A stretch of DNA of 64,000 nucleotides from an uncultured Acidobacteriota bacterium. Its GTDB lineage: Bacteria > Acidobacteriota > UBA6911. How positions within the stretch are numbered: position 1 is the stretch's first letter; each line of letters starts with the position of its first letter. Below are positions 20,786 through 27,462 of the stretch, one piece after another. The notes below the pieces were generated by a model, which saw only the letters and a program-made list of their open reading frames with translations, did not search any database and had not been told where the DNA came from. Where the stretch lies: contig CAWHCF010000023.1 of the NCBI GenBank assembly GCA_963827655.1, positions 480,001-544,000 of the forward strand, read 5' to 3'. The translations under genes were made by a program, and so were the position numbers.

Positions 20786-20872
20786 CTTTGAGGCTTCGCG
20801 TTCGAGTTTAGCGTTGATAGCGGAAGCGCGAAGAGAATGCGGACGAGCTTAACACATGATCCAGGGGGAGAT

Positions 20873-23800
20873 ATGGCTCATCGGTTGATTGGCGTCAGTC
20901 TGATTTCGTTCTTGGTTTTGCTGTCCGCTCCGCCGTTGGTCTATGCTCAAACGGGGGCCGGAAATATCCAGGGTACAGCGAAGGATCCTACGGGAGCCGT
21001 TGTTCCAGGCGCTGATGTCACCGTGCTGCATCTGCAGACAAGCCGGCAGCATGAAACCATTACCAACGATACCGGCTTCTTTATCTTCCCGTCGCTCCAA
21101 ACAGGAAACTACAAGATTACGGTGCAAGCGCCTGCCATGCAGACCTGGCAAGGGGAGCTGCTTCTTCAAGTCGGCCAAACGGCGGTGGTTGATGCGGTGC
21201 TAAGAATTGCCGCCACTTTGACCGAAGTCACCGTCGTCGGTGATGTAACCCCGCTGGTCACGAGCAGCGACGCCACGCTGGGCAATGTCGTCGAACGCGC
21301 TCGCATCGATCAGCTTCCCCTTAACGGCCGCTTCTTTCAAACACTGGTGCAGCAGACCACCCCCGGGCTCGAAGGCTCGTCCTCCAGCCCGCGCGTATAC
21401 GGTCTTCGATCGACGTCGATGGAATTCTTGCAGGACGGCTCCGTGCTGACTAACCGGGATACCGGAGAGCTTTCCGGCCGCCCTCCAGGGCTCGACACCA
21501 TTGACGAATTTCGCGTGGAAACGAACAACTCGTCGGCGAAAATGAACCGTCCGGCGGCGACGATCATCTCGACCAAAAGCGGTTCCAACGAGCTCCACGG
21601 AGCGTTATTCGAGACTCACCGTAACAATGCGGTCGGTGTAGCGCGGCGCCGGCAGGACTACTACGACAAGCCGCCTCACCTGGTGCGCAACGAATTTGGC
21701 GCTTCTCTAGGCGGACCCGTCTACATTCCCAAAATCTACAACGGCACTGGGAACACATTTTTCTTCTTCGCCTACGAGGCGTACCGCAACTTTTCGAATA
21801 CGACGACCAGCACGACCATGCCGACGATGGCGATGCGGCAAGGTGATTTCAGCGGGTTGATCGACAGCGCGGGGCGACGCATCACGATCTACGACCCCTG
21901 GACTACCGATCCTGTCACCTGGCAGCGACAACCCTTCGCGAACAACATCATCCCGCTCAGCCGTCAAAGCCCGCTGGCCAAGTATTTCTACAGCGTCACT
22001 CCGGAACCTACCTTGCCGGATGTTAATCCCCTGGTGGCGGCCAACTATTTCGGTCCCGGTGTTTCAAACCGCGTCGATCACACGGAAACAGTGCGACTGG
22101 ACCATCGTCTCTCCTCCCGAGATCAATTGTTCGGCCGCTTCTCGCACGGCAATCGCTGGGCGAAAAACCGCTCGGGTCCCAATGGTTCTCCCGAAATGCT
22201 CGACGAGGCCGGCAATGTAACCTTTCGTCCCGTCCGGGACGACAGCGCCGTGGTTTCCTGGACCCGCACCTTCTCCCCGACGTTTTTCAGCGAGACGCTG
22301 GGATCCTGGTCGCACGAGAATCTGACGATATTCGTCGGGACCGATCACATCAATCATGCCGACCGGCTCGGGATGCCAAACCCTTTTCGTGAGACAGGCC
22401 TGCCGAACTTCAGCGAAACCGGCTTCGATATGACTTACGCATATGCCGACAACAAGCGCACCAACATAACCAAGGTGTTGAGCGTGGACCAGAATTTCAC
22501 CAAGGTTGCCGGACGTCACGCGCTGCAGTTCGGGGGCCGCTTCCGAAACGAGGGGTTGCACGTGCTTCCGGATCAGCAGCAGGTCCAGGGCAGTCACAAT
22601 TTTGCCAGCCTGGCTACAGCCCTGTACGATCCGGCGAGTGGCTCGAATTACAACGCTGTCCCCCGCACCGGCCATAACAGTGCCAACCTGTTTCTGGGTA
22701 TTGTCGGGTCCTATTCCGCGCAGTTCGTCCGGAAGTGGTATTACCTGACGGCCCGTGAGTACGCCGGCTATTTTCAGGACAATTTCAAGGTGAATTCCAG
22801 GCTGACAGTGAATCTGGGGCTGCGCTGGGAGTTCTATCCGGTTATCCGGGAAAGAAACAATGTCCTGACCGGCTTCGATTCGGGAACCAAATCGATTATC
22901 AACGGGGTTAGTCTCAGCCGGTTATACGAGCTGGGGGTCACGTCACCGGCAATCGTTGCTAACTTTACGGATATCGGCGCTAAATTCATCACGCCGGGCG
23001 AAGCAGGCTTGCCGGACACTCTGATGTATTCCAATCCCTGGGACTTTGGCCCCCGCGCGGGTTTTGCGTACCGCATCGGCTCGGACTCCCGATCGACGGT
23101 ATTGCGCGGCGGTTATGCCCTGTACGGTTTTCCGATTCCCCTGCGGACGTTCAACGCCCGCTCGCGGCAGAATGCTCCTACCAACGCGCGTTTCACCCAG
23201 TCGGTGACGAGTGCGGCCCAGAGCCCGGACGGGCTGCCTAACCATGGCTTGCGCTCTGTCCCGACGATCATCGCAGGCGTGAACAGTCGTGATGTACTGG
23301 ACCCCAACACACCGGGGGGCGTGACGCGCGGTTCATTCCTGACCAGCTATTTCGATCCCAAGCAGCCCACCACGCGCGCCCACGAGTGGAACCTGACACT
23401 GGAACGGGAGTTCATGGCCAACACCGTGATTCGCGCCGGCTACGTCGGGACGCACGGCAGCAAGCTCGAGCAGTTCTACACCTTCAACGAGCAGGCCCCT
23501 GACTACGTCTGGTTCGTCAACAGCGGGCAACCGCTGCCGACCGGTGAGTTCGCTCCTGTGGCGCGCCGCTACTTCGACCAGACGACGTATGGCAACATCG
23601 AAGCTTATCGCAAGACCGGCTCGTCGAATTTCAATGGAATGCAGATCGAAGTCCAGCGGCGCTACTCACAAGGCTTCGGTTTTCAATTCTTCTATGTTCT
23701 GAGCAATGCGTTCCGTGCCGGAGGAAACGGATGGAACGAAGACTTCGTCCAGGAAGCGAACATGTTCCTGGCCGGCGCGGTTCCTGCCGACTTGCAAGAA

Positions 23801-24558
23801 CGCAACCGGATGTTAAATTACCGCCGCGACCCCGAGATCCCCAAGCACCGCATACGCTGGAACTGGATCGTGGACCTTCCCTTTGGCCGCGGTCACAGAT
23901 TCGCGAGCAATGCCGGGGGATTCCTGGATCGGGTTATTGGAGGCTGGCAGATCGCCGGCTTCGGAAACCTCCGGAGCAATTACTGGCTGCTCCCCACATC
24001 CAATTGGGGAGAGTCGGGGCCCACCGAGATTTACGGCACGAAGTATCCGATCCAGGATTGCCGCAGCGGCCGATGTTTTCCTGGATACCTGTGGTACAAC
24101 GGTTACATTCCGGCGCACCTTGTCAATAGCGTCGATGCCCAGGGTCGCCCGACCGGCGTCATGGGGGTTCCGGCCAGCTACAAGCCCTCTTCTCAGCCGG
24201 TAATTCCGACGCCGGCCAACGGAGGCAGCCCAGCGATCCCAATTTCCAGTTCTACGAAACGAACACAGTGTCTGTGCGGCTCAATAACGGAATGTTACAG
24301 CGCACGTTGCTCAATACGAACCTCCATCCCTGGCGCAACCAGCTCAGGCCGGGCCCGGGTACCGTAGGTCTCGATGTCTCCTTGTTCAAGAACATACCGA
24401 TTAACGAGCGCTGCGCCCTGCGTTTCAACGCGGATTTCTTCAACGTTCTGAATATGCCGGGCCTTCAGCAGCCCAACTCGGTCAGCGGCATCGTCAGCCT
24501 GCAGAATTCGGCGAATGAACCCCGGCAGTTGCAGCTCACGCTTCGGTTGACCTGGTGA
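20873..24558 (+). CDS. TonB-dependent receptor, acidobacterial type with carboxypeptidase-regulatory-like domain (frameshift near 24230)
   Basis: GNIQGTAKDPTGAVVPGA, LPLNGR, TKSGSNELHG, RNEFGASLGGP, YFQDNFKV, LGLRWE; C-terminal RFNADFFNVLN..RQLQLTLRLTW in the second frame. Confidence 0.92.
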
Positions 24559-24789: not shown

Positions 24790-25050
24790 TCATGCACTTA
24801 AAAGGCGCTCGTAATCTCCATGACTGCCCACCCAGAACCAGATGAGAGTCCCCTCTTCCTCAGTGGCGAGAGCGCGGTAACTCGCACCGATTCGAATGGA
24901 CCAAGTGTCGGCTGCAACTTTCTTGAAATGGAGCGAGGGATGACGGGGGTTATCACGCCAAACGCGATATGTCTTTCGGGCGAGCGTTCGTATGTCGGCC
25001 AGGAGGTTCTGATATGCTTTCCAGAACCTCTCGTTGGCATTGCTTTTCAA
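24790..25050 (-). CDS. RelE/ParE/HigB-superfamily toxin
   Basis: FWKAYQNL, NPRHPSLHFKKV, WSIRIGASYRALA, WFWVGSHGDYERLL. Confidence 0.88.
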   Translation of the reverse strand: MKSNANERFWKAYQNLLADIRTLARKTYRVWRDNPRHPSLHFKKVAADTWSIRIGASYRALATEEEGTLIWFWVGSHGDYERLLSA

Positions 25051-25253
25051 CGAAGGGGGCGAGTCCTACCGTTTTTGAAATCCGCCTTGGCCTCGTCGAT
25101 GAGTTGACGCAGGCGCCCACCCGGCTGTGCATCCTCAACGATTTGGCTGTCCCATAAGCGGGCCTGGTACTCGGTCAGCCATTCGGCAAGACGCCTTACC
25201 TCTGCGGCAGGAAGTTTTTCGATCTCGGCTTCGATATCCTCAATGCTTCGCAT
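25047..25253 (-). CDS. Putative antitoxin of the RelE/ParE-like pair
   Basis: MRSIEDIEAEIEKLP..LAEWL..WDSQIVEDA..G.L..LIDEA..G.TRPL; 4-nt overlap with the toxin. Confidence 0.82.
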   Translation of the reverse strand: MRSIEDIEAEIEKLPAAEVRRLAEWLTEYQARLWDSQIVEDAQPGGRLRQLIDEAKADFKNGRTRPLR

Positions 25254-25313
25254 GCGAAAAAGATACGTCAACAGAAAGCCGCCCACAAGCCAGAACTTGA
25301 CCGAAATCGTGAC

Positions 25314-25336
25314 AATTGACGTCACCGTGGTCAATT
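25314..25336. promoter_or_regulatory. Candidate operator AATTGAC-N9-GTCAATT in a divergent promoter region
   Basis: Perfect 7-bp inverted repeat between the antitoxin and PNPOx genes. Confidence 0.35.
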
Positions 25337-25356
25337 CTCTATGGTAAATAACATCC

Positions 25357-25803
25357 ATGACCAAGCCGACGCCTCAACCGATCGATCCGAGTGAACTGGT
25401 AGACCTTGCGCTGAGCGTGGTCCGCGCCGATCGCTTTCCCTACCTCGCGACCATCGACCAGGACCAGCCGCGCGTCCGCCCTGTCTCACCCGTTCGAACC
25501 GACGGATTCACAGTCTACGTCGCGAATCTGCGCAGCTATCACAAAACGGGCGAGCTTGCGGCCAACCCCCGGGTGGAACTCTGTTACATGGACCAGGAGC
25601 ATAATCACGTGCGACTGACCGGCACGGCTGAAATCGTCACCGAGCGCCCGCTGCTGCAAGAAATCTGGGATACCAATCCGCTGCTTCGCCAGTATCTCGG
25701 CTCGCTGGATAACCCCGAGCTGATTGTCTATCGAGTCGTTCCCCACAGGGTTCGCTATATGCGTGAATGGGCGCTTGAATACCACGAGGTCCCGCTGAAT
25801 TAG
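25357..25803 (+). CDS. Pyridoxamine 5'-phosphate oxidase family (split-barrel flavoprotein)
   Basis: YLATIDQDQPRVRP, KTGELAANPRVELCY, VRLTGTAEIV. Confidence 0.88.
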   Translation: MTKPTPQPIDPSELVDLALSVVRADRFPYLATIDQDQPRVRPVSPVRTDGFTVYVANLRSYHKTGELAANPRVELCYMDQEHNHVRLTGTAEIVTERPLLQEIWDTNPLLRQYLGSLDNPELIVYRVVPHRVRYMREWALEYHEVPLN

Positions 25804-26249: not shown

Positions 26250-26310
26250 CGAGCATTATTGAACGCGGCTGGCTTTCATTCGAGAGTGCTTCAAGGACGG
26301 CGGGGAGAAA

Positions 26311-26745
26311 CTACGGCTTGGTCCCGGAAGTTTTGGGATAGATCTTAGTGCCTTTGTAGTCGCGCAGGCCGCAGAACCCTGCCGTTTTGAATCCGTGCTT
26401 CTGTAGAATAGCCGCGGCACGCGCGGCACGCCCGCCGCTGTTTCAAGCCGTCAGGATGGTCTTGTCTTTCGGCAGCTCGCTGAGCCGCCCTTCGAGTTCG
26501 CCAATTGGAATGTTGATGTAGCCCTCGCGCGTGCCAAGCTCTTCGAGCTCCTTGGGCTCGCGCACGTCCAGAAGTATAGCCTTGCCATCCGCGAGAAGCT
26601 TGTCGATGGCGTCGGCCGCAATGCGCTGATCCTCAGACACTGGCGTCCCCTGCGATGGCGGAGGAGGAGCGCTCTGGTTAGGAGGTTGTTGCGCGGCCAG
26701 GATCGCCGCTCCCACCAGCATCAGCTCCAGCACGAGTGATTTCAT
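26311..26745 (-). CDS. Rhodanese-domain protein with in-frame UGA at the active-site Cys (candidate selenoprotein, 144 aa)
   Basis: LLDVREPKE, INIPIGEL..RLSELPKDKTILTA-[TGA 26443-26445]-NSGGRAARAAAILQKHGFK..FCGLRDY; frame continues to TAG at 26311. Confidence 0.85.
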
Positions 26746-26916
26746 GCTTCGCCTCCCTCGATGCTCGCATTGTAATTTGCGCCCATCTGCTTAAGCAAGG
26801 TCTCGTAGAAACAAAATCCACCACGAAGACGCAAAGGCGCGAAGAAATGCCAGGAACGAACCTTTCGCCGCTCTGGTCCATCTAATTGAGAAGAAACAGA
26901 TGGGCCACCATAATCC

Positions 26917-27462
26917 ATGACAAGACGAAAGCTTGCTTCTCTGGCTCTGCTCCTCGCTCTCACGGCCGCCCTCGCGATCATCCTCAAACACGGCAGACGT
27001 TCAAATCTGCCGCGCACGCAGCCGCAAGACGCAACCGATGCGGGCCTGATTCTTTCACCACAAAGGAACAAGGCAATATCCTTCAAAACTGAAAAAGGGG
27101 AGACCCAGGTCTGGGTCGTGTCGTATCCGGAAAACAGTCGCCGCATGGTGGCGAAGTTCAGTGCTGAAGAATCGGCCCGATACGCCAGCTGGTCGCCGGA
27201 TGGCCGGCTCTTCGCGTACGAATCCTACAGCCTGGCCGGGCATAGTCCCATGACTACCACCCATGTCTGGATCGCCCGCTCAGACGCCGCCGAGATCAGA
27301 CAGATCCGGCTTCCGCTGCCGAACGAAAGGTTTTCGACCTACCTGGATAAATGGGTCGACAGCGACACCCTGCGAATTCGCAGCACCTTGCTGGAGCGTC
27401 CCGAGGACGTGTTTTACCATTACCGGTATTCCACCGGGAAAATCCAGGGTCCGCCCGGTTAA
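26917..27462 (+). CDS. Membrane-anchored protein with a PD40/TolB-like repeat
   Basis: N-terminal hydrophobic helix; YASWSPDGRLFAY..HVWIARSD. Confidence 0.6.
   Translation: MTRRKLASLALLLALTAALAIILKHGRRSNLPRTQPQDATDAGLILSPQRNKAISFKTEKGETQVWVVSYPENSRRMVAKFSAEESARYASWSPDGRLFAYESYSLAGHSPMTTTHVWIARSDAAEIRQIRLPLPNERFSTYLDKWVDSDTLRIRSTLLERPEDVFYHYRYSTGKIQGPPG

What the first reader, a model, noticed from the sequence alone, without database searches (positions are those of the whole stretch)
26311..26745. Hidden selenoprotein candidate: exported rhodanese with UGA at the catalytic position
Seen: the ORF track stops at ...KDKTILTA, but the frame continues through TGA (26443-26445) as NSGGRAARAAAILQKHGFKTAGFCGLRDYKGTKIYPKTSGTKP to TAG at 26311. 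Known: single-domain rhodaneses have the loop C-x-S/T-G-x-R followed by AA..L...GF, so the TGA sits exactly at the catalytic Cys. Known: bacterial Sec insertion needs a hairpin just 3' of the UGA. Seen: two alternative hairpins follow it, GCGGC-GGGCGU-GCCGC (4 nt after) and GCCGCG-CGUGC-CGCGGC (15 nt after). The N-terminus looks like a signal peptide plus a Pro/Gln linker, and a second Cys (FCG) could act as a resolving residue. Inference: a periplasmic selenocysteine sulfur/selenium transferase. Sec-rhodaneses have been predicted before, but an exported one in this lineage would be unusual. Unlike the other defects in the window, this is not an indel.
Basis: partly seen in the sequence, partly recalled or inferred. 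Interest (0 to 1): 0.85.

Follow-up and report, generated by a model that had tools for sequence, protein, structure and literature searches.

The report
Exported selenocysteine rhodanese gene, mis-called as truncated
This is a real gene for a small, probably exported sulfur-transfer enzyme whose catalytic residue is selenocysteine, encoded by a UGA "stop". It belongs to a predicted kind of selenoprotein that turns out to be common in soil Acidobacteriota.

Summary
The minus-strand ORF 26745..26443 ends at TGA 26443-26445, and the frame runs on to TAG 26311-26313, giving 144 aa.

- **Fold:** the read-through protein is a single rhodanese domain that spans the TGA (Pfam 46.9 bits; AlphaFold2 and Foldseek).
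- **TGA position:** it falls on the catalytic Cys of the six-residue loop U-N-S-G-G-R.
- **Conservation:** of 59 related loci in species-representative genomes, 40 have TGA, 18 have TGC or TGT, and 1 did not align.
- **Not an error:** contigs from four independent soil runs keep the TGA.
- **Machinery:** the genome has selB, selD, tRNA-Sec(UCA), selA (frameshifted in this assembly) and a TGA-containing formate dehydrogenase.
- **SECIS:** The first hairpin shows none.

Rhodanese selenoproteins with a UxxG motif are already listed in the literature. I therefore file this as a new member, possibly a subfamily, of a known kind. It is not unusual for the lineage. Export, sulfur transfer and a role for Cys125 are inferred, not shown.

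The parts
26311..26745 (-). Full coding sequence of the selenoprotein: 144 codons plus TAG stop at 26311-26313. UGA 26443-26445 is read as Sec101.
   Evidence: frame open through the TGA; Pfam Rhodanese, residues 44-121, E 4.1e-12, spans the TGA; downstream part conserved as protein in 58 of 59 loci
26752..26756 (-). Shine-Dalgarno-like GGAGG, 6 nt upstream of ATG 26743-26745
   Evidence: read directly; function inferred
26692..26745 (-). Residues 1-18 (MKSLVLELMLVGAAILAA): probable Sec-type signal peptide, with cleavage inferred before the nearly invariant Gln19
   Evidence: all 37 aligned family members begin with a basic and then hydrophobic N-terminus, followed by a nearly invariant Q (Q19); pLDDT 56 over residues 1-20. 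No signal-peptide predictor was run.
26632..26691 (-). Residues 19-38: Pro/Gln/Ser-rich linker of variable length
   Evidence: gappy, unconserved columns; pLDDT 56-72
26383..26616 (-). Rhodanese homology domain (Pfam match, residues 44-121). The confidently folded core is about residues 41-130.
   Evidence: pLDDT 93-97 for the blocks covering residues 41-130; 81 PDB matches at E<=0.001, top ones rhodanese domains
26443..26445 (-). UGA codon for selenocysteine 101, at the catalytic Cys column
   Evidence: TGA in 40, TGC/TGT in 18 of 59 loci at this column; no difference at 26443-26445 in contigs of 4 runs
26428..26445 (-). Active-site loop U101-N-S-G-G-R106: the six-residue Cys-X4-Arg loop of sulfurtransferase-type rhodaneses
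   Evidence: sequence; R106 is invariant in A2. The link between loop length and function is recalled knowledge.
26411..26427 (-). Proposed SECIS hairpin GCCGCG-CGUGC-CGCGGC. The stem starts 15 nt after UGA, and the apical loop is 26417-26421 with G-U. It lies within codons Ala107-Ala112.
   Evidence: pair 21-33: CG 27, UA 4, GC 1; pair 24-30: GC 25, CG 6; covariation 0.194 vs 0.099 in shuffles, 0 of 500 reach it; loop codon CGT in 35 of 41 against 11.4% of Arg codons genome-wide; at least 5 of 6 pairs in 35 of 41 Sec forms
26414..26438 (-). Alternative hairpin 1, starting 4 nt after UGA. It is mutually exclusive with the SECIS hairpin and is the thermodynamic optimum in this sequence.
   Evidence: MFE structure; -19.1 kcal/mol; 0 compensatory changes in 41 sequences
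26371..26373 (-). Cys125 (TGC) in the 'FCG' motif on the last beta-strand. It is a conserved second cysteine and a candidate partner of Sec101.
   Evidence: Cys at this position in 36 of 40 Sec-form loci, plus the window; in 5 of 8 orthologous Cys forms; in 0 of 10 distant rhodaneses, read by eye from the context strings; strand 121-126. Its role is inferred.

Best explanation
The gene at 26311-26745 (minus strand) encodes a 144-residue selenoprotein.

**How the UGA is read.** During translation the in-frame UGA at 26443-26445 is read as selenocysteine. SelB carrying Sec-tRNA(Sec, anticodon UCA) would bind a SECIS hairpin in the mRNA just downstream. That hairpin is most likely GCCGCG-CGUGC-CGCGGC, whose stem starts 15 nt after the UGA and whose loop has G-U.

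**What the product is.** It is a single rhodanese domain with Sec101 at the head of the six-residue catalytic loop U-N-S-G-G-R, in place of the usual catalytic Cys. An N-terminal signal peptide and a Pro/Gln-rich linker probably send it across the inner membrane.

**What it probably does.** By analogy with Cys rhodaneses, Sec101 would take a sulfane sulfur (or selenium) atom from a donor such as thiosulfate or a persulfide/polysulfide, holding it as a Se-S(-) adduct, and pass it to an acceptor. The conserved Cys125 may assist or resolve this step.

**Shown:** the UGA is real, conserved and interchangeable with Cys. The fold is rhodanese. Hairpin 2 covaries. The genome carries Sec machinery and another selenoprotein.

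**Inferred:** actual Se incorporation, export, the substrate, and the role of Cys125.
For: 1. **Sec/Cys pair.** In 59 related loci from species-representative genomes, the codon at the column of residue 101 is TGA in 40, TGC in 14, TGT in 4, and not aligned in 1.
   - Of 17 fetched database homologues, 5 stop at ...ILTA and 12 read ...ILTAC-N/Q-x-G-x-RA... at up to 75% identity.
   - In the 40 nearest genomes plus the window's own, the eight best non-self hits each carry exactly one TGA. It lies at the catalytic column in all eight.
2. **The part after the TGA is conserved as protein.** R106, A107, A110, L114 and P137 are invariant in 37 sequences.
3. **Rhodanese identity.** Pfam PF00581 scores 46.9 bits against a cut-off of 22.2, spanning residues 44-121. 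The AlphaFold2 model has pLDDT 93-97 over residues 41-130. Foldseek gives 81 PDB matches at E<=0.001, the best being rhodanese domains of CoA-disulfide/persulfide reductases and single-domain rhodaneses.
4. **Not a sequencing error.** Contigs from three DNA runs and one RNA library, from four studies, cover 26443-26445 with no difference there. The nearby differences are synonymous.
5. **Machinery**.
   - SelB: 380.1 bits against a cut-off of 242.
   - SelD: 384.3 bits.
   - tRNA-Sec: 74.1 bits, anticodon TCA.
   - SelA: 372.8 bits.
   - A full-length formate dehydrogenase alpha subunit: 1381 bits, with one TGA.
6. **SECIS.**
   - Hairpin 2 has compensatory changes at synonymous third positions. 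Covariation is 0.194 against 0.099 in shuffles, reached by 0 of 500, and the slid controls give at most 0.074.
   - The loop Arg codon is CGT in 35 of 41 sequences, against 11.4% of Arg codons in the genome's long ORFs.
   - At least 5 of 6 pairs form in 35 of 41 Sec forms, against 0 of 10 distant Cys rhodaneses.
   - Two other TGA-rhodanese candidates in the same genome carry hairpins with loops CGUGC and CGUGU at the same distance.
7. **Export.** All 37 aligned members start with a basic-hydrophobic N-terminus followed by a nearly invariant Gln. One (L055) has a lipobox-like AAGC.
Against: - For this sequence alone the downstream folding energy is not unusual (z = -0.57; 51 of 200 shuffles fold as well).
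- The most stable structure here is hairpin 1, not the proposed SECIS (-19.1 vs -11.1 kcal/mol).
- Six of 41 Sec forms do not form hairpin 2 at these columns (2-3 of 6 pairs). They have shifted hairpins instead.
- Five of 8 orthologous Cys forms still form at least 5 of 6 pairs, so the hairpin is partly a by-product of the Arg-Ala-rich coding sequence.
- selA is broken by at least two frameshifts in this assembly. I read these as assembly indels, because other genes here look frameshifted and all three DNA runs differ from the window by a 1-base indel at 26780. I could not check the selA reads.
- The window's own signal peptide has a Glu in its hydrophobic core (LVLELML), and no predictor was run.
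- No conserved gene neighbourhood points to a substrate.
- No selenium incorporation, activity or localisation data exist.
- The RNA-library contig does not prove transcription.
Confidence: 0.85

Rival explanations
1. Sec is inserted as above, but the protein is not a sulfane-sulfur carrier. Instead Sec101 and Cys125 would form a selenenylsulfide redox couple. The protein would then act as an extracytoplasmic thiol/selenol oxidoreductase or reductase, for example of selenite, arsenate, peroxides or disulfides.
For: - Cys125 is conserved in 36 of 40 Sec-form loci plus the window, and is absent from the 10 distant Cys rhodaneses.
- It lies on strand 121-126, next in sequence order to the strand that ends in Sec101.
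- Most predicted bacterial selenoproteins are homologues of thiol oxidoreductases (passage in PMC9312934).
- The best structural matches are rhodanese domains of persulfide/CoA-disulfide reductases.
Against: - The catalytic loop has six residues (U-X4-R). From recalled knowledge, this is the sulfurtransferase type, not the seven-residue phosphatase/arsenate-reductase type.
- Four Sec forms (L089, L091, L092, L093) lack Cys125, and three orthologous Cys forms lack it too. It is therefore not obligatory.
- The Sec101-Cys125 distance could not be measured, because model coordinates were not readable.
Confidence: 0.2
2. The UGA is a true stop. The gene would then be a truncated rhodanese remnant of 100 aa without a catalytic loop, and the downstream open frame would be a decaying relic.
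For: - Gene callers stop there. Many database entries are about 100 aa and end at ...ILTA.
- selA is frameshifted in this assembly.
- The hairpin energy is not significant on its own.
Against: - The same 'stop' sits at the same column in 40 loci from different species, always followed by a conserved in-frame catalytic loop and C-terminal half.
- Differences to related strains around the TGA are synonymous.
- Synonymous sites covary to keep a hairpin.
- The genome has another TGA-containing enzyme, formate dehydrogenase.
Confidence: 0.04
3. The TGA is an assembly or sequencing error for TGC/TGT.
For: The assembly shows indel-type defects elsewhere: selA and a 1-base indel at 26780 relative to three runs.
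Against: - Contigs from four runs in four studies all agree with the window at 26443-26445.
- Forty other genomes have TGA there.
- The defect would have to be a substitution, unlike the indels seen elsewhere.
Confidence: 0.01
4. The protein is a selenoprotein rhodanese but is not released into the periplasm. The N-terminus would be an uncleaved membrane anchor, or in some members a lipoprotein anchor, holding the domain at the outer face of the inner membrane. Alternatively the true start lies downstream and the protein is cytoplasmic.
For: - The window's hydrophobic segment contains a Glu, and position -3 of the inferred cleavage site is Leu.
- One relative (L055) has a lipobox-like AAGC.
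- No predictor was run.
Against: - There is no alternative ATG/GTG/TTG with a ribosome-binding site between residue 9 and the domain, as I read.
- The A-Q junction is nearly invariant across 37 members.
Confidence: 0.1

Closest known systems
[quoted passage not shown] They are listed in the 2026 review PMC13188914 (table rows seen) and were first reported from genomes and the Sargasso Sea metagenome (PMC1088965, table and figure legends seen).
   Same: Single rhodanese domain, with Sec replacing the catalytic Cys. The motif is U-x-x-G (here U-N-S-G). A SECIS-like hairpin with a G in a small apical loop follows the UGA. Cys homologues exist.
   Different: - I could not fetch the representative accessions, so I do not know whether the acidobacterial family is one of these two forms or a further one.
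- The passages I read do not mention a signal peptide, a conserved second Cys, or Acidobacteria. Those terms have 0 occurrences in the review.
NF041203 rhodanese_LYCAU, 'rhodanese-related (seleno)protein' (form 3, motif CxU)
   Same: Rhodanese-domain selenoprotein family. The same genome carries two TGA-containing candidates of this type (YCSU, YCAU), with a similar SECIS loop.
   Different: - The window protein scores 27.1 bits against a cut-off of 115.
- Its Sec is at the Cys position itself, not two residues after a Cys. It is not a member.
PspE / GlpE: single-domain Cys rhodaneses of E. coli. PspE is periplasmic (from recalled knowledge).
   Same: Small single rhodanese domain and a six-residue catalytic loop. 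PspE also has a signal peptide and acts outside the cytoplasm.
   Different: - Only weak similarity: PspE NF007627 scores 24.5 bits against a cut-off of 102, and GlpE 16.7 against 102.
- Those proteins use Cys, not Sec, and have no second conserved Cys at the 'GG' position.
Rhodanese domains of CoA-disulfide reductase-RHD (3icr) and NADH-dependent persulfide reductase (3nta)
   Same: They are the best structural matches (Foldseek E 5e-8 to 5e-7, 33-42% identity over about 90-106 columns). Their rhodanese Cys handles persulfide sulfur.
   Different: Those are C-terminal domains of cytoplasmic flavoenzymes of about 550 residues and use Cys. This protein is a stand-alone domain with a signal peptide and Sec.
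Formate dehydrogenase alpha subunit (TIGR01553), the classical bacterial selenoprotein
   Same: It uses the same decoding system (UGA plus a downstream hairpin). It is present in this genome with one TGA.
   Different: Unrelated fold and chemistry (a Mo-bound Sec). Its hairpin has a different sequence (loop GUC).

Membership tests
Rhodanese homology domain (PF00581) | Profile match above the curated threshold | tested here: met
   46.9 bits against a cut-off of 22.2, residues 44-121, with the TGA read through
Rhodanese homology domain (PF00581) | Alpha/beta rhodanese fold | tested here: met
   AlphaFold2 model with pLDDT 93-97 over residues 41-130. Foldseek probability is 1.00 to many rhodanese domains, with 81 matches at E<=0.001.
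Rhodanese homology domain (PF00581) | Catalytic Cys at the head of a six-residue loop ending in Arg (sulfurtransferase type; the definition is recalled) | tested here: met
   The loop is U101-N-S-G-G-R106. The column is Cys in 18 and TGA in 40 of 59 loci. R106 is invariant. Sec stands in place of Cys.
Bacterial selenoprotein (SelB/SECIS-dependent UGA decoding) | In-frame UGA aligned with Cys in homologues, with conserved sequence on both sides | tested here: met
Bacterial selenoprotein (SelB/SECIS-dependent UGA decoding) | Stem-loop just downstream of the UGA, with a small apical loop containing G (as described in PMC1088965) | tested here: met
   The hairpin at 26411-26427 has loop CGUGC and shows covariation. 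However, single-sequence energy is not significant, and a competing hairpin is more stable.
Bacterial selenoprotein (SelB/SECIS-dependent UGA decoding) | selA, selB, selC and selD present in the genome | tested here: inconclusive
   selB, selD and tRNA-Sec(UCA) are intact. selA is present at 372.8 bits but has at least two frameshifts in this assembly. These are probably assembly indels, which I did not verify.
Bacterial selenoprotein (SelB/SECIS-dependent UGA decoding) | Selenium actually incorporated in the protein | not testable with these tools
   Needs 75Se labelling or mass spectrometry.
Rhodanese-like selenoprotein form 2 / form 4 (UxxG) of PMC13188914 | Motif UxxG in a PF00581 domain | tested here: met
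   U-N-S-G; table rows
Rhodanese-like selenoprotein form 2 / form 4 (UxxG) of PMC13188914 | Sequence relationship to the representative entries (MBM9537886.1, MCY3690685.1) | not tested
NF041203 rhodanese_LYCAU (form 3, CxU) | Score above the cut-off and a CxU motif | tested here: not met
   27.1 bits against 115. There is no Cys two residues before the Sec (T-A-U).
PspE (NF007627 / TIGR02981) | Score above the cut-off | tested here: not met
   24.5 bits against 102, and 19.8 against 126.3
Sec-pathway secreted protein | N-terminal signal peptide (n, h and c regions, with a signal-peptidase site) | tested here: inconclusive
   A basic-hydrophobic N-terminus and a nearly invariant A-Q junction occur in all 37 members. 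N-terminal pLDDT is low. No signal-peptide predictor was available, and the window copy has a Glu in the h-region.

The most novel reading that the evidence does not exclude
Acidobacteriota may carry a distinct, lineage-wide family of secreted rhodaneses in which Sec101 and the conserved Cys125 form a selenenylsulfide switch. That would make it an extracytoplasmic selenoenzyme for polysulfide, thiosulfate or selenium-oxyanion chemistry in soil. It would be separate from the catalogued cytoplasmic UxxG forms, and its SECIS would be written into the RAARAA helix that follows the active site. If so, it would be the first secreted sulfur-transfer selenoenzyme, and a common and previously overlooked use of selenium by a dominant soil phylum.
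Probability: 0.2. Interest if true: 0.6.

Novelty: new member of a known kind. Interest (0 to 1): 0.4.

Why it matters
**Annotation.** Gene callers cut this protein at the UGA. Many database entries of the family are 100-residue stubs called 'hypothetical protein' or 'SseA'. The catalytic half of a widespread enzyme is therefore missing from soil metagenome annotations.

**Biology.**
- The Sec form is the majority state among the acidobacterial species representatives found (40 of 49). Cys forms are nested inside the Sec clade.
- This is a good natural system for asking what selenium buys a sulfurtransferase.
- It also suggests that soil Acidobacteriota use selenium outside the cytoplasm.
- To my knowledge (recalled, not searched), no rhodanese-type selenoprotein has been characterised biochemically.

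The kind itself has been predicted since 2004-2005, so a specialist would not be very surprised.

Tried and rejected
- **Gene neighbourhood as a clue to substrate.** The window neighbours are a PNPOx-like protein, a glyoxalase/VOC protein, an unknown protein and a CarboxypepD_reg protein. Across 49 loci, no non-overlapping neighbour family recurs in more than 11 loci, and the window shares none. Those that recur are a sigma-54 activator, a GFO/IDH/MocA oxidoreductase, an AMP-binding enzyme, a xylose-isomerase-like TIM barrel and unknowns. This gave no lead.
- **Rfam scan of 26250-26800.** The only hit was a chance-level eukaryotic UTR family, on the + strand (opposite to the gene), at 20.4 bits against a cut-off of 38. 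It reported no SECIS family.
- **Single-sequence folding significance.** Not significant.
- **Hairpin 1 as the SECIS.** Rejected on comparative grounds, but not excluded for this particular sequence.
- **Promoter and terminator scan.** It found nothing on the gene's strand next to the gene. The two minus-strand terminator-like sites lie upstream, at 27102-27154.
- **Measuring the Sec101-Cys125 distance.** The model's coordinates are not exposed to the script box, so this was not done.
- **RNA evidence.** One metatranscriptome contig (X15, 26393-26609, 3 differences) spans the UGA and hairpin. Contigs from an RNA library do not prove transcription.
- **Direction of Sec/Cys change.** The tree needs at least 5 changes, and well-supported branches force at least 2. 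It has few columns (112), a quick search, and a root assumed on the L094-L096 clade. 'One gain, several reversions' is only a suggestion.
- **Literature.** Two full-text searches were made. The second (selenoprotein + Acidobacteria + rhodanese) found 2 papers, neither describing this family. I read only passages found by term, not whole papers. Supplementary tables are closed and may list acidobacterial rhodanese selenoproteins.
- **Unpublished genome.** G034 (locus L032) appears as one of the eight relatives with a TGA.
Full report
**Observation**

On the minus strand an ORF starts at ATG 26745-26743, with GGAGG six bases upstream. It is called as 100 codons ending ...KDKTILTA at TGA 26445-26443. 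Read through, the frame continues for 43 more codons to TAG 26313-26311 and gives a 144-residue protein. The second Cys of 'FCG' is residue 125.

**What the protein is**

- With the TGA read through, Pfam's Rhodanese model matches residues 44-121 at 46.9 bits (cut-off 22.2), so the match spans the TGA.
- NCBIfam gives only sub-threshold matches: MoeZ/MoeB rhodanese domains, rhodanese_LYCAU at 27.1 against 115, and PspE at 24.5 against 102.
- An AlphaFold2 model built on a 37-sequence alignment is confident over residues 41-130 (pLDDT 93-97). It is poor over the first 40 residues.
- Foldseek finds 81 PDB chains at E<=0.001. The best are rhodanese domains of CoA-disulfide and persulfide reductases and several single-domain rhodaneses.
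- The TGA is the first residue of a six-residue loop, U-N-S-G-G-R. From recalled knowledge, this is the sulfurtransferase type of rhodanese active site.

**Is the UGA a selenocysteine codon?**

Four lines of evidence agree.

1. *Sec/Cys pairs at one column.*
   - A six-frame search covered the window's genome and 40 relatives. The eight best non-self hits each contain exactly one TGA. Translating them shows the U at the catalytic column in all eight. Nine weaker hits have Cys there, and two have the known C-x-U arrangement.
   - A scan of one genome per species returned 59 loci. The first 49 (L049-L097) all carry Acidobacteriota-type titles (Vicinamibacteria, Bryobacterales, Terriglobia, Solibacteraceae and the like); the last ten come from other groups.
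   - At the column of residue 101 the codon is TGA in 40, TGC in 14 and TGT in 4. One locus (L097) did not align there.
   - Among the 49 loci L049-L097 the split is 40 Sec, 8 Cys and 1 unaligned.
   - In the protein database, close relatives are either about 100-residue stubs ending ...ILTA, or full-length proteins reading ...ILTAC-N-S-G-G-R-A-A-R-A-A... at up to 75% identity.
2. *The sequence after the UGA is conserved as protein.* R106, A107, A110, L114 and P137 are invariant in 37 sequences.
3. *The TGA is not an error.* Contigs of three DNA runs and one RNA library, from four different studies, cover 26443-26445 without a difference. The nearest differences (26431, 26449) are synonymous third-position changes.
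4. *The genome can decode Sec.*
   - SelB scores 380 bits (above cut-off), SelD 384 bits, and tRNA-Sec 74 bits with anticodon TCA. SelA scores 373 bits.
   - A full-length formate dehydrogenase alpha subunit carries a single TGA.
   - One weakness: selA is interrupted by at least two frameshifts in this assembly. I think these are assembly indels. All three DNA runs differ from the window by a one-base indel at 26780, and a large outer-membrane gene in the window also looks frameshifted. I could not check the selA reads.

**The SECIS**

- For the window alone, the 51 nt from the UGA do not fold better than shuffles (z = -0.57).
- Comparison reverses this ranking. In an ungapped alignment of 41 Sec forms, the second hairpin is GCCGCG-CGUGC-CGCGGC at 26411-26427.
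  - It has compensatory changes at synonymous third positions. Pair 21-33 is CG 27, UA 4, GC 1. Pair 24-30 is GC 25, CG 6. The flanking pair 18-36 is GC 8, CG 5, AU 2.
  - Its covariation score is 0.194, against 0.099 in shuffles (0 of 500 reach it) and at most 0.074 when the partners are slid.
- The first hairpin has no compensatory change at all.
- The loop codon for Arg109 is CGT in 35 of 41 sequences, although CGT makes up 11.4% of Arg codons in this genome's long open frames. This keeps a G-U in the apical loop.
- At least 5 of the 6 core pairs form in 35 of 41 Sec forms, in 5 of 8 orthologous Cys forms, and in 0 of 10 distant Cys rhodaneses.
- Six Sec forms use a shifted hairpin.
- Two further TGA-containing rhodanese candidates in the same genome (C17 and C26, of the C-x-U type) carry hairpins with loops CGUGC and CGUGU at the same distance.
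[quoted passage not shown] This hairpin fits it.

**Export and the second cysteine**

- All 37 aligned members begin with a basic and then hydrophobic N-terminus, ending at a nearly invariant A-Q junction. A linker of variable length, rich in Pro, Gln and Ala, follows. One member has a lipobox-like AAGC. This fits a cleaved signal peptide.
- No predictor was available, and the window's copy has a Glu in the hydrophobic core. Export is therefore an inference.
- Cys125 is present in 36 of 40 Sec-form loci and in the window. It is present in 5 of 8 orthologous Cys forms and in none of the 10 distant rhodaneses (read by eye).
- Cys125 lies on the last strand of the sheet. From memory, that is where other rhodaneses have the first Gly of a 'GG' motif close to the active-site loop.
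- A selenenylsulfide with Sec101 is therefore plausible but untested. I could not read the model's coordinates.

**Mechanism proposed**

SelB with Sec-tRNA(Sec) binds the hairpin while the ribosome is at the UGA and inserts Sec101. The precursor is exported and its signal peptide removed. The mature domain of about 125 residues uses the selenolate of Sec101 to accept a sulfane sulfur (or selenium) and hand it on, with Cys125 possibly assisting or resolving. Only the decoding part has comparative support. The chemistry is by analogy with Cys rhodaneses.

**Evolution**

- A quick maximum-likelihood tree of 61 core sequences was rooted on the Cys clade L094-L096. It places basal Cys forms outside a large clade of 54 rows (41 Sec, 13 Cys).
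- Within that clade Cys forms are nested in several places. At least 5 changes of state are needed, and well-supported branches force at least 2.
- This suggests one gain of Sec and repeated reversions to Cys. The tree has few columns and an assumed root.

**Comparison with what is known**

- Rhodanese-type selenoproteins have been predicted since 2004-2008. Examples are 'rhodanese-related sulfurtransferase' with 3 sequences in the Sargasso Sea and 8 in Olavius symbionts, and 'Sulfurtransferase COG0607' in the GOS data.
- A 2026 review lists five forms. Two of them are PF00581 proteins with a UxxG motif.
- The window protein has UxxG, so it belongs to this kind.
- I could not fetch the representative accessions. 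Whether the acidobacterial family, with its signal peptide and Cys125, is one of those forms or a further one remains open.
- The review passages I searched do not mention Acidobacteria, signal peptides or the periplasm (0 occurrences each). The only two papers holding 'selenoprotein', 'Acidobacteria' and 'rhodanese' together do not describe this family. Supplementary tables, which I could not see, may list it.
- It is not a member of NF041203 (rhodanese_LYCAU) or of PspE/GlpE.

**Verdict**

It corrects a systematic annotation error and shows that the Sec form is the common state in Acidobacteriota, not an oddity. It is a new member, possibly a new subfamily, of a known kind. Interest 0.4.

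Noticed in passing
G000:C23:243800-244800 (outside the window, same contig): selA (373 bits) is split over at least two frames. One shift is near 244671-244675 and another near the C-terminus. This is either assembly indels or a broken selA. It matters for whether this cell can make Sec.
   Followed up: partly
window 26780 and 26302: Contigs of all three DNA runs lack one base at 26780, in the upstream region of the gene. One run also lacks a base at 26302. This is a probable indel error in the assembly, or strain variation.
   Followed up: no
window 20837-24558 (+): A large CarboxypepD_reg + OMP_b-brl_4 outer-membrane protein of 1176 aa matches only profile positions 1-718 of 838. The next ORF in another frame (24268-24558) ends with a typical beta-barrel C-terminus. 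This is probably one gene broken by a frameshift.
   Followed up: no
window 24790-25364 (-): A ParE-like toxin domain protein (24790-25050, E 1.4e-10) is preceded by a small overlapping ORF with no Pfam match (25047-25364). This is a likely toxin-antitoxin pair.
   Followed up: no
G000:C17:32001-32321 (+) and G000:C26:23610-23939 (-): Two more rhodanese-like ORFs have one in-frame TGA, in a C-x-U arrangement (YCSU, YCAU). They score below the cut-off for NF041203 (66 and 95 bits against 115). Downstream hairpins have loops CGUGC and CGUGU.
   Followed up: partly
G000:C26:166295-169291 (+): Full-length formate dehydrogenase alpha subunit (1381 bits) with one TGA (...ARLUHGP...) and a hairpin with loop GUC. 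It serves as a positive control for Sec use in this genome.
   Followed up: partly
loci L030-L037 (relatives of the window's genome): The nearest genomes carry a more distant paralogous or orthologous group (35-46% identity). It has the same layout: signal peptide, U-x-x-G-x-R, and F-C-G/P. The closest relatives of the window's protein (64-71% identity) are instead in loci whose records are titled Vicinamibacteria, Versatilivorator or unclassified Acidobacteriota/Terriglobia. The distribution may be patchy, or the gene may have been transferred.
   Followed up: no
window 26332-26340 region (residues 136-138): A C-terminal motif Y-P-K (P137 invariant, K138 nearly invariant) lies outside the Pfam rhodanese match and is conserved across the family. 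Its role is unknown.
   Followed up: no
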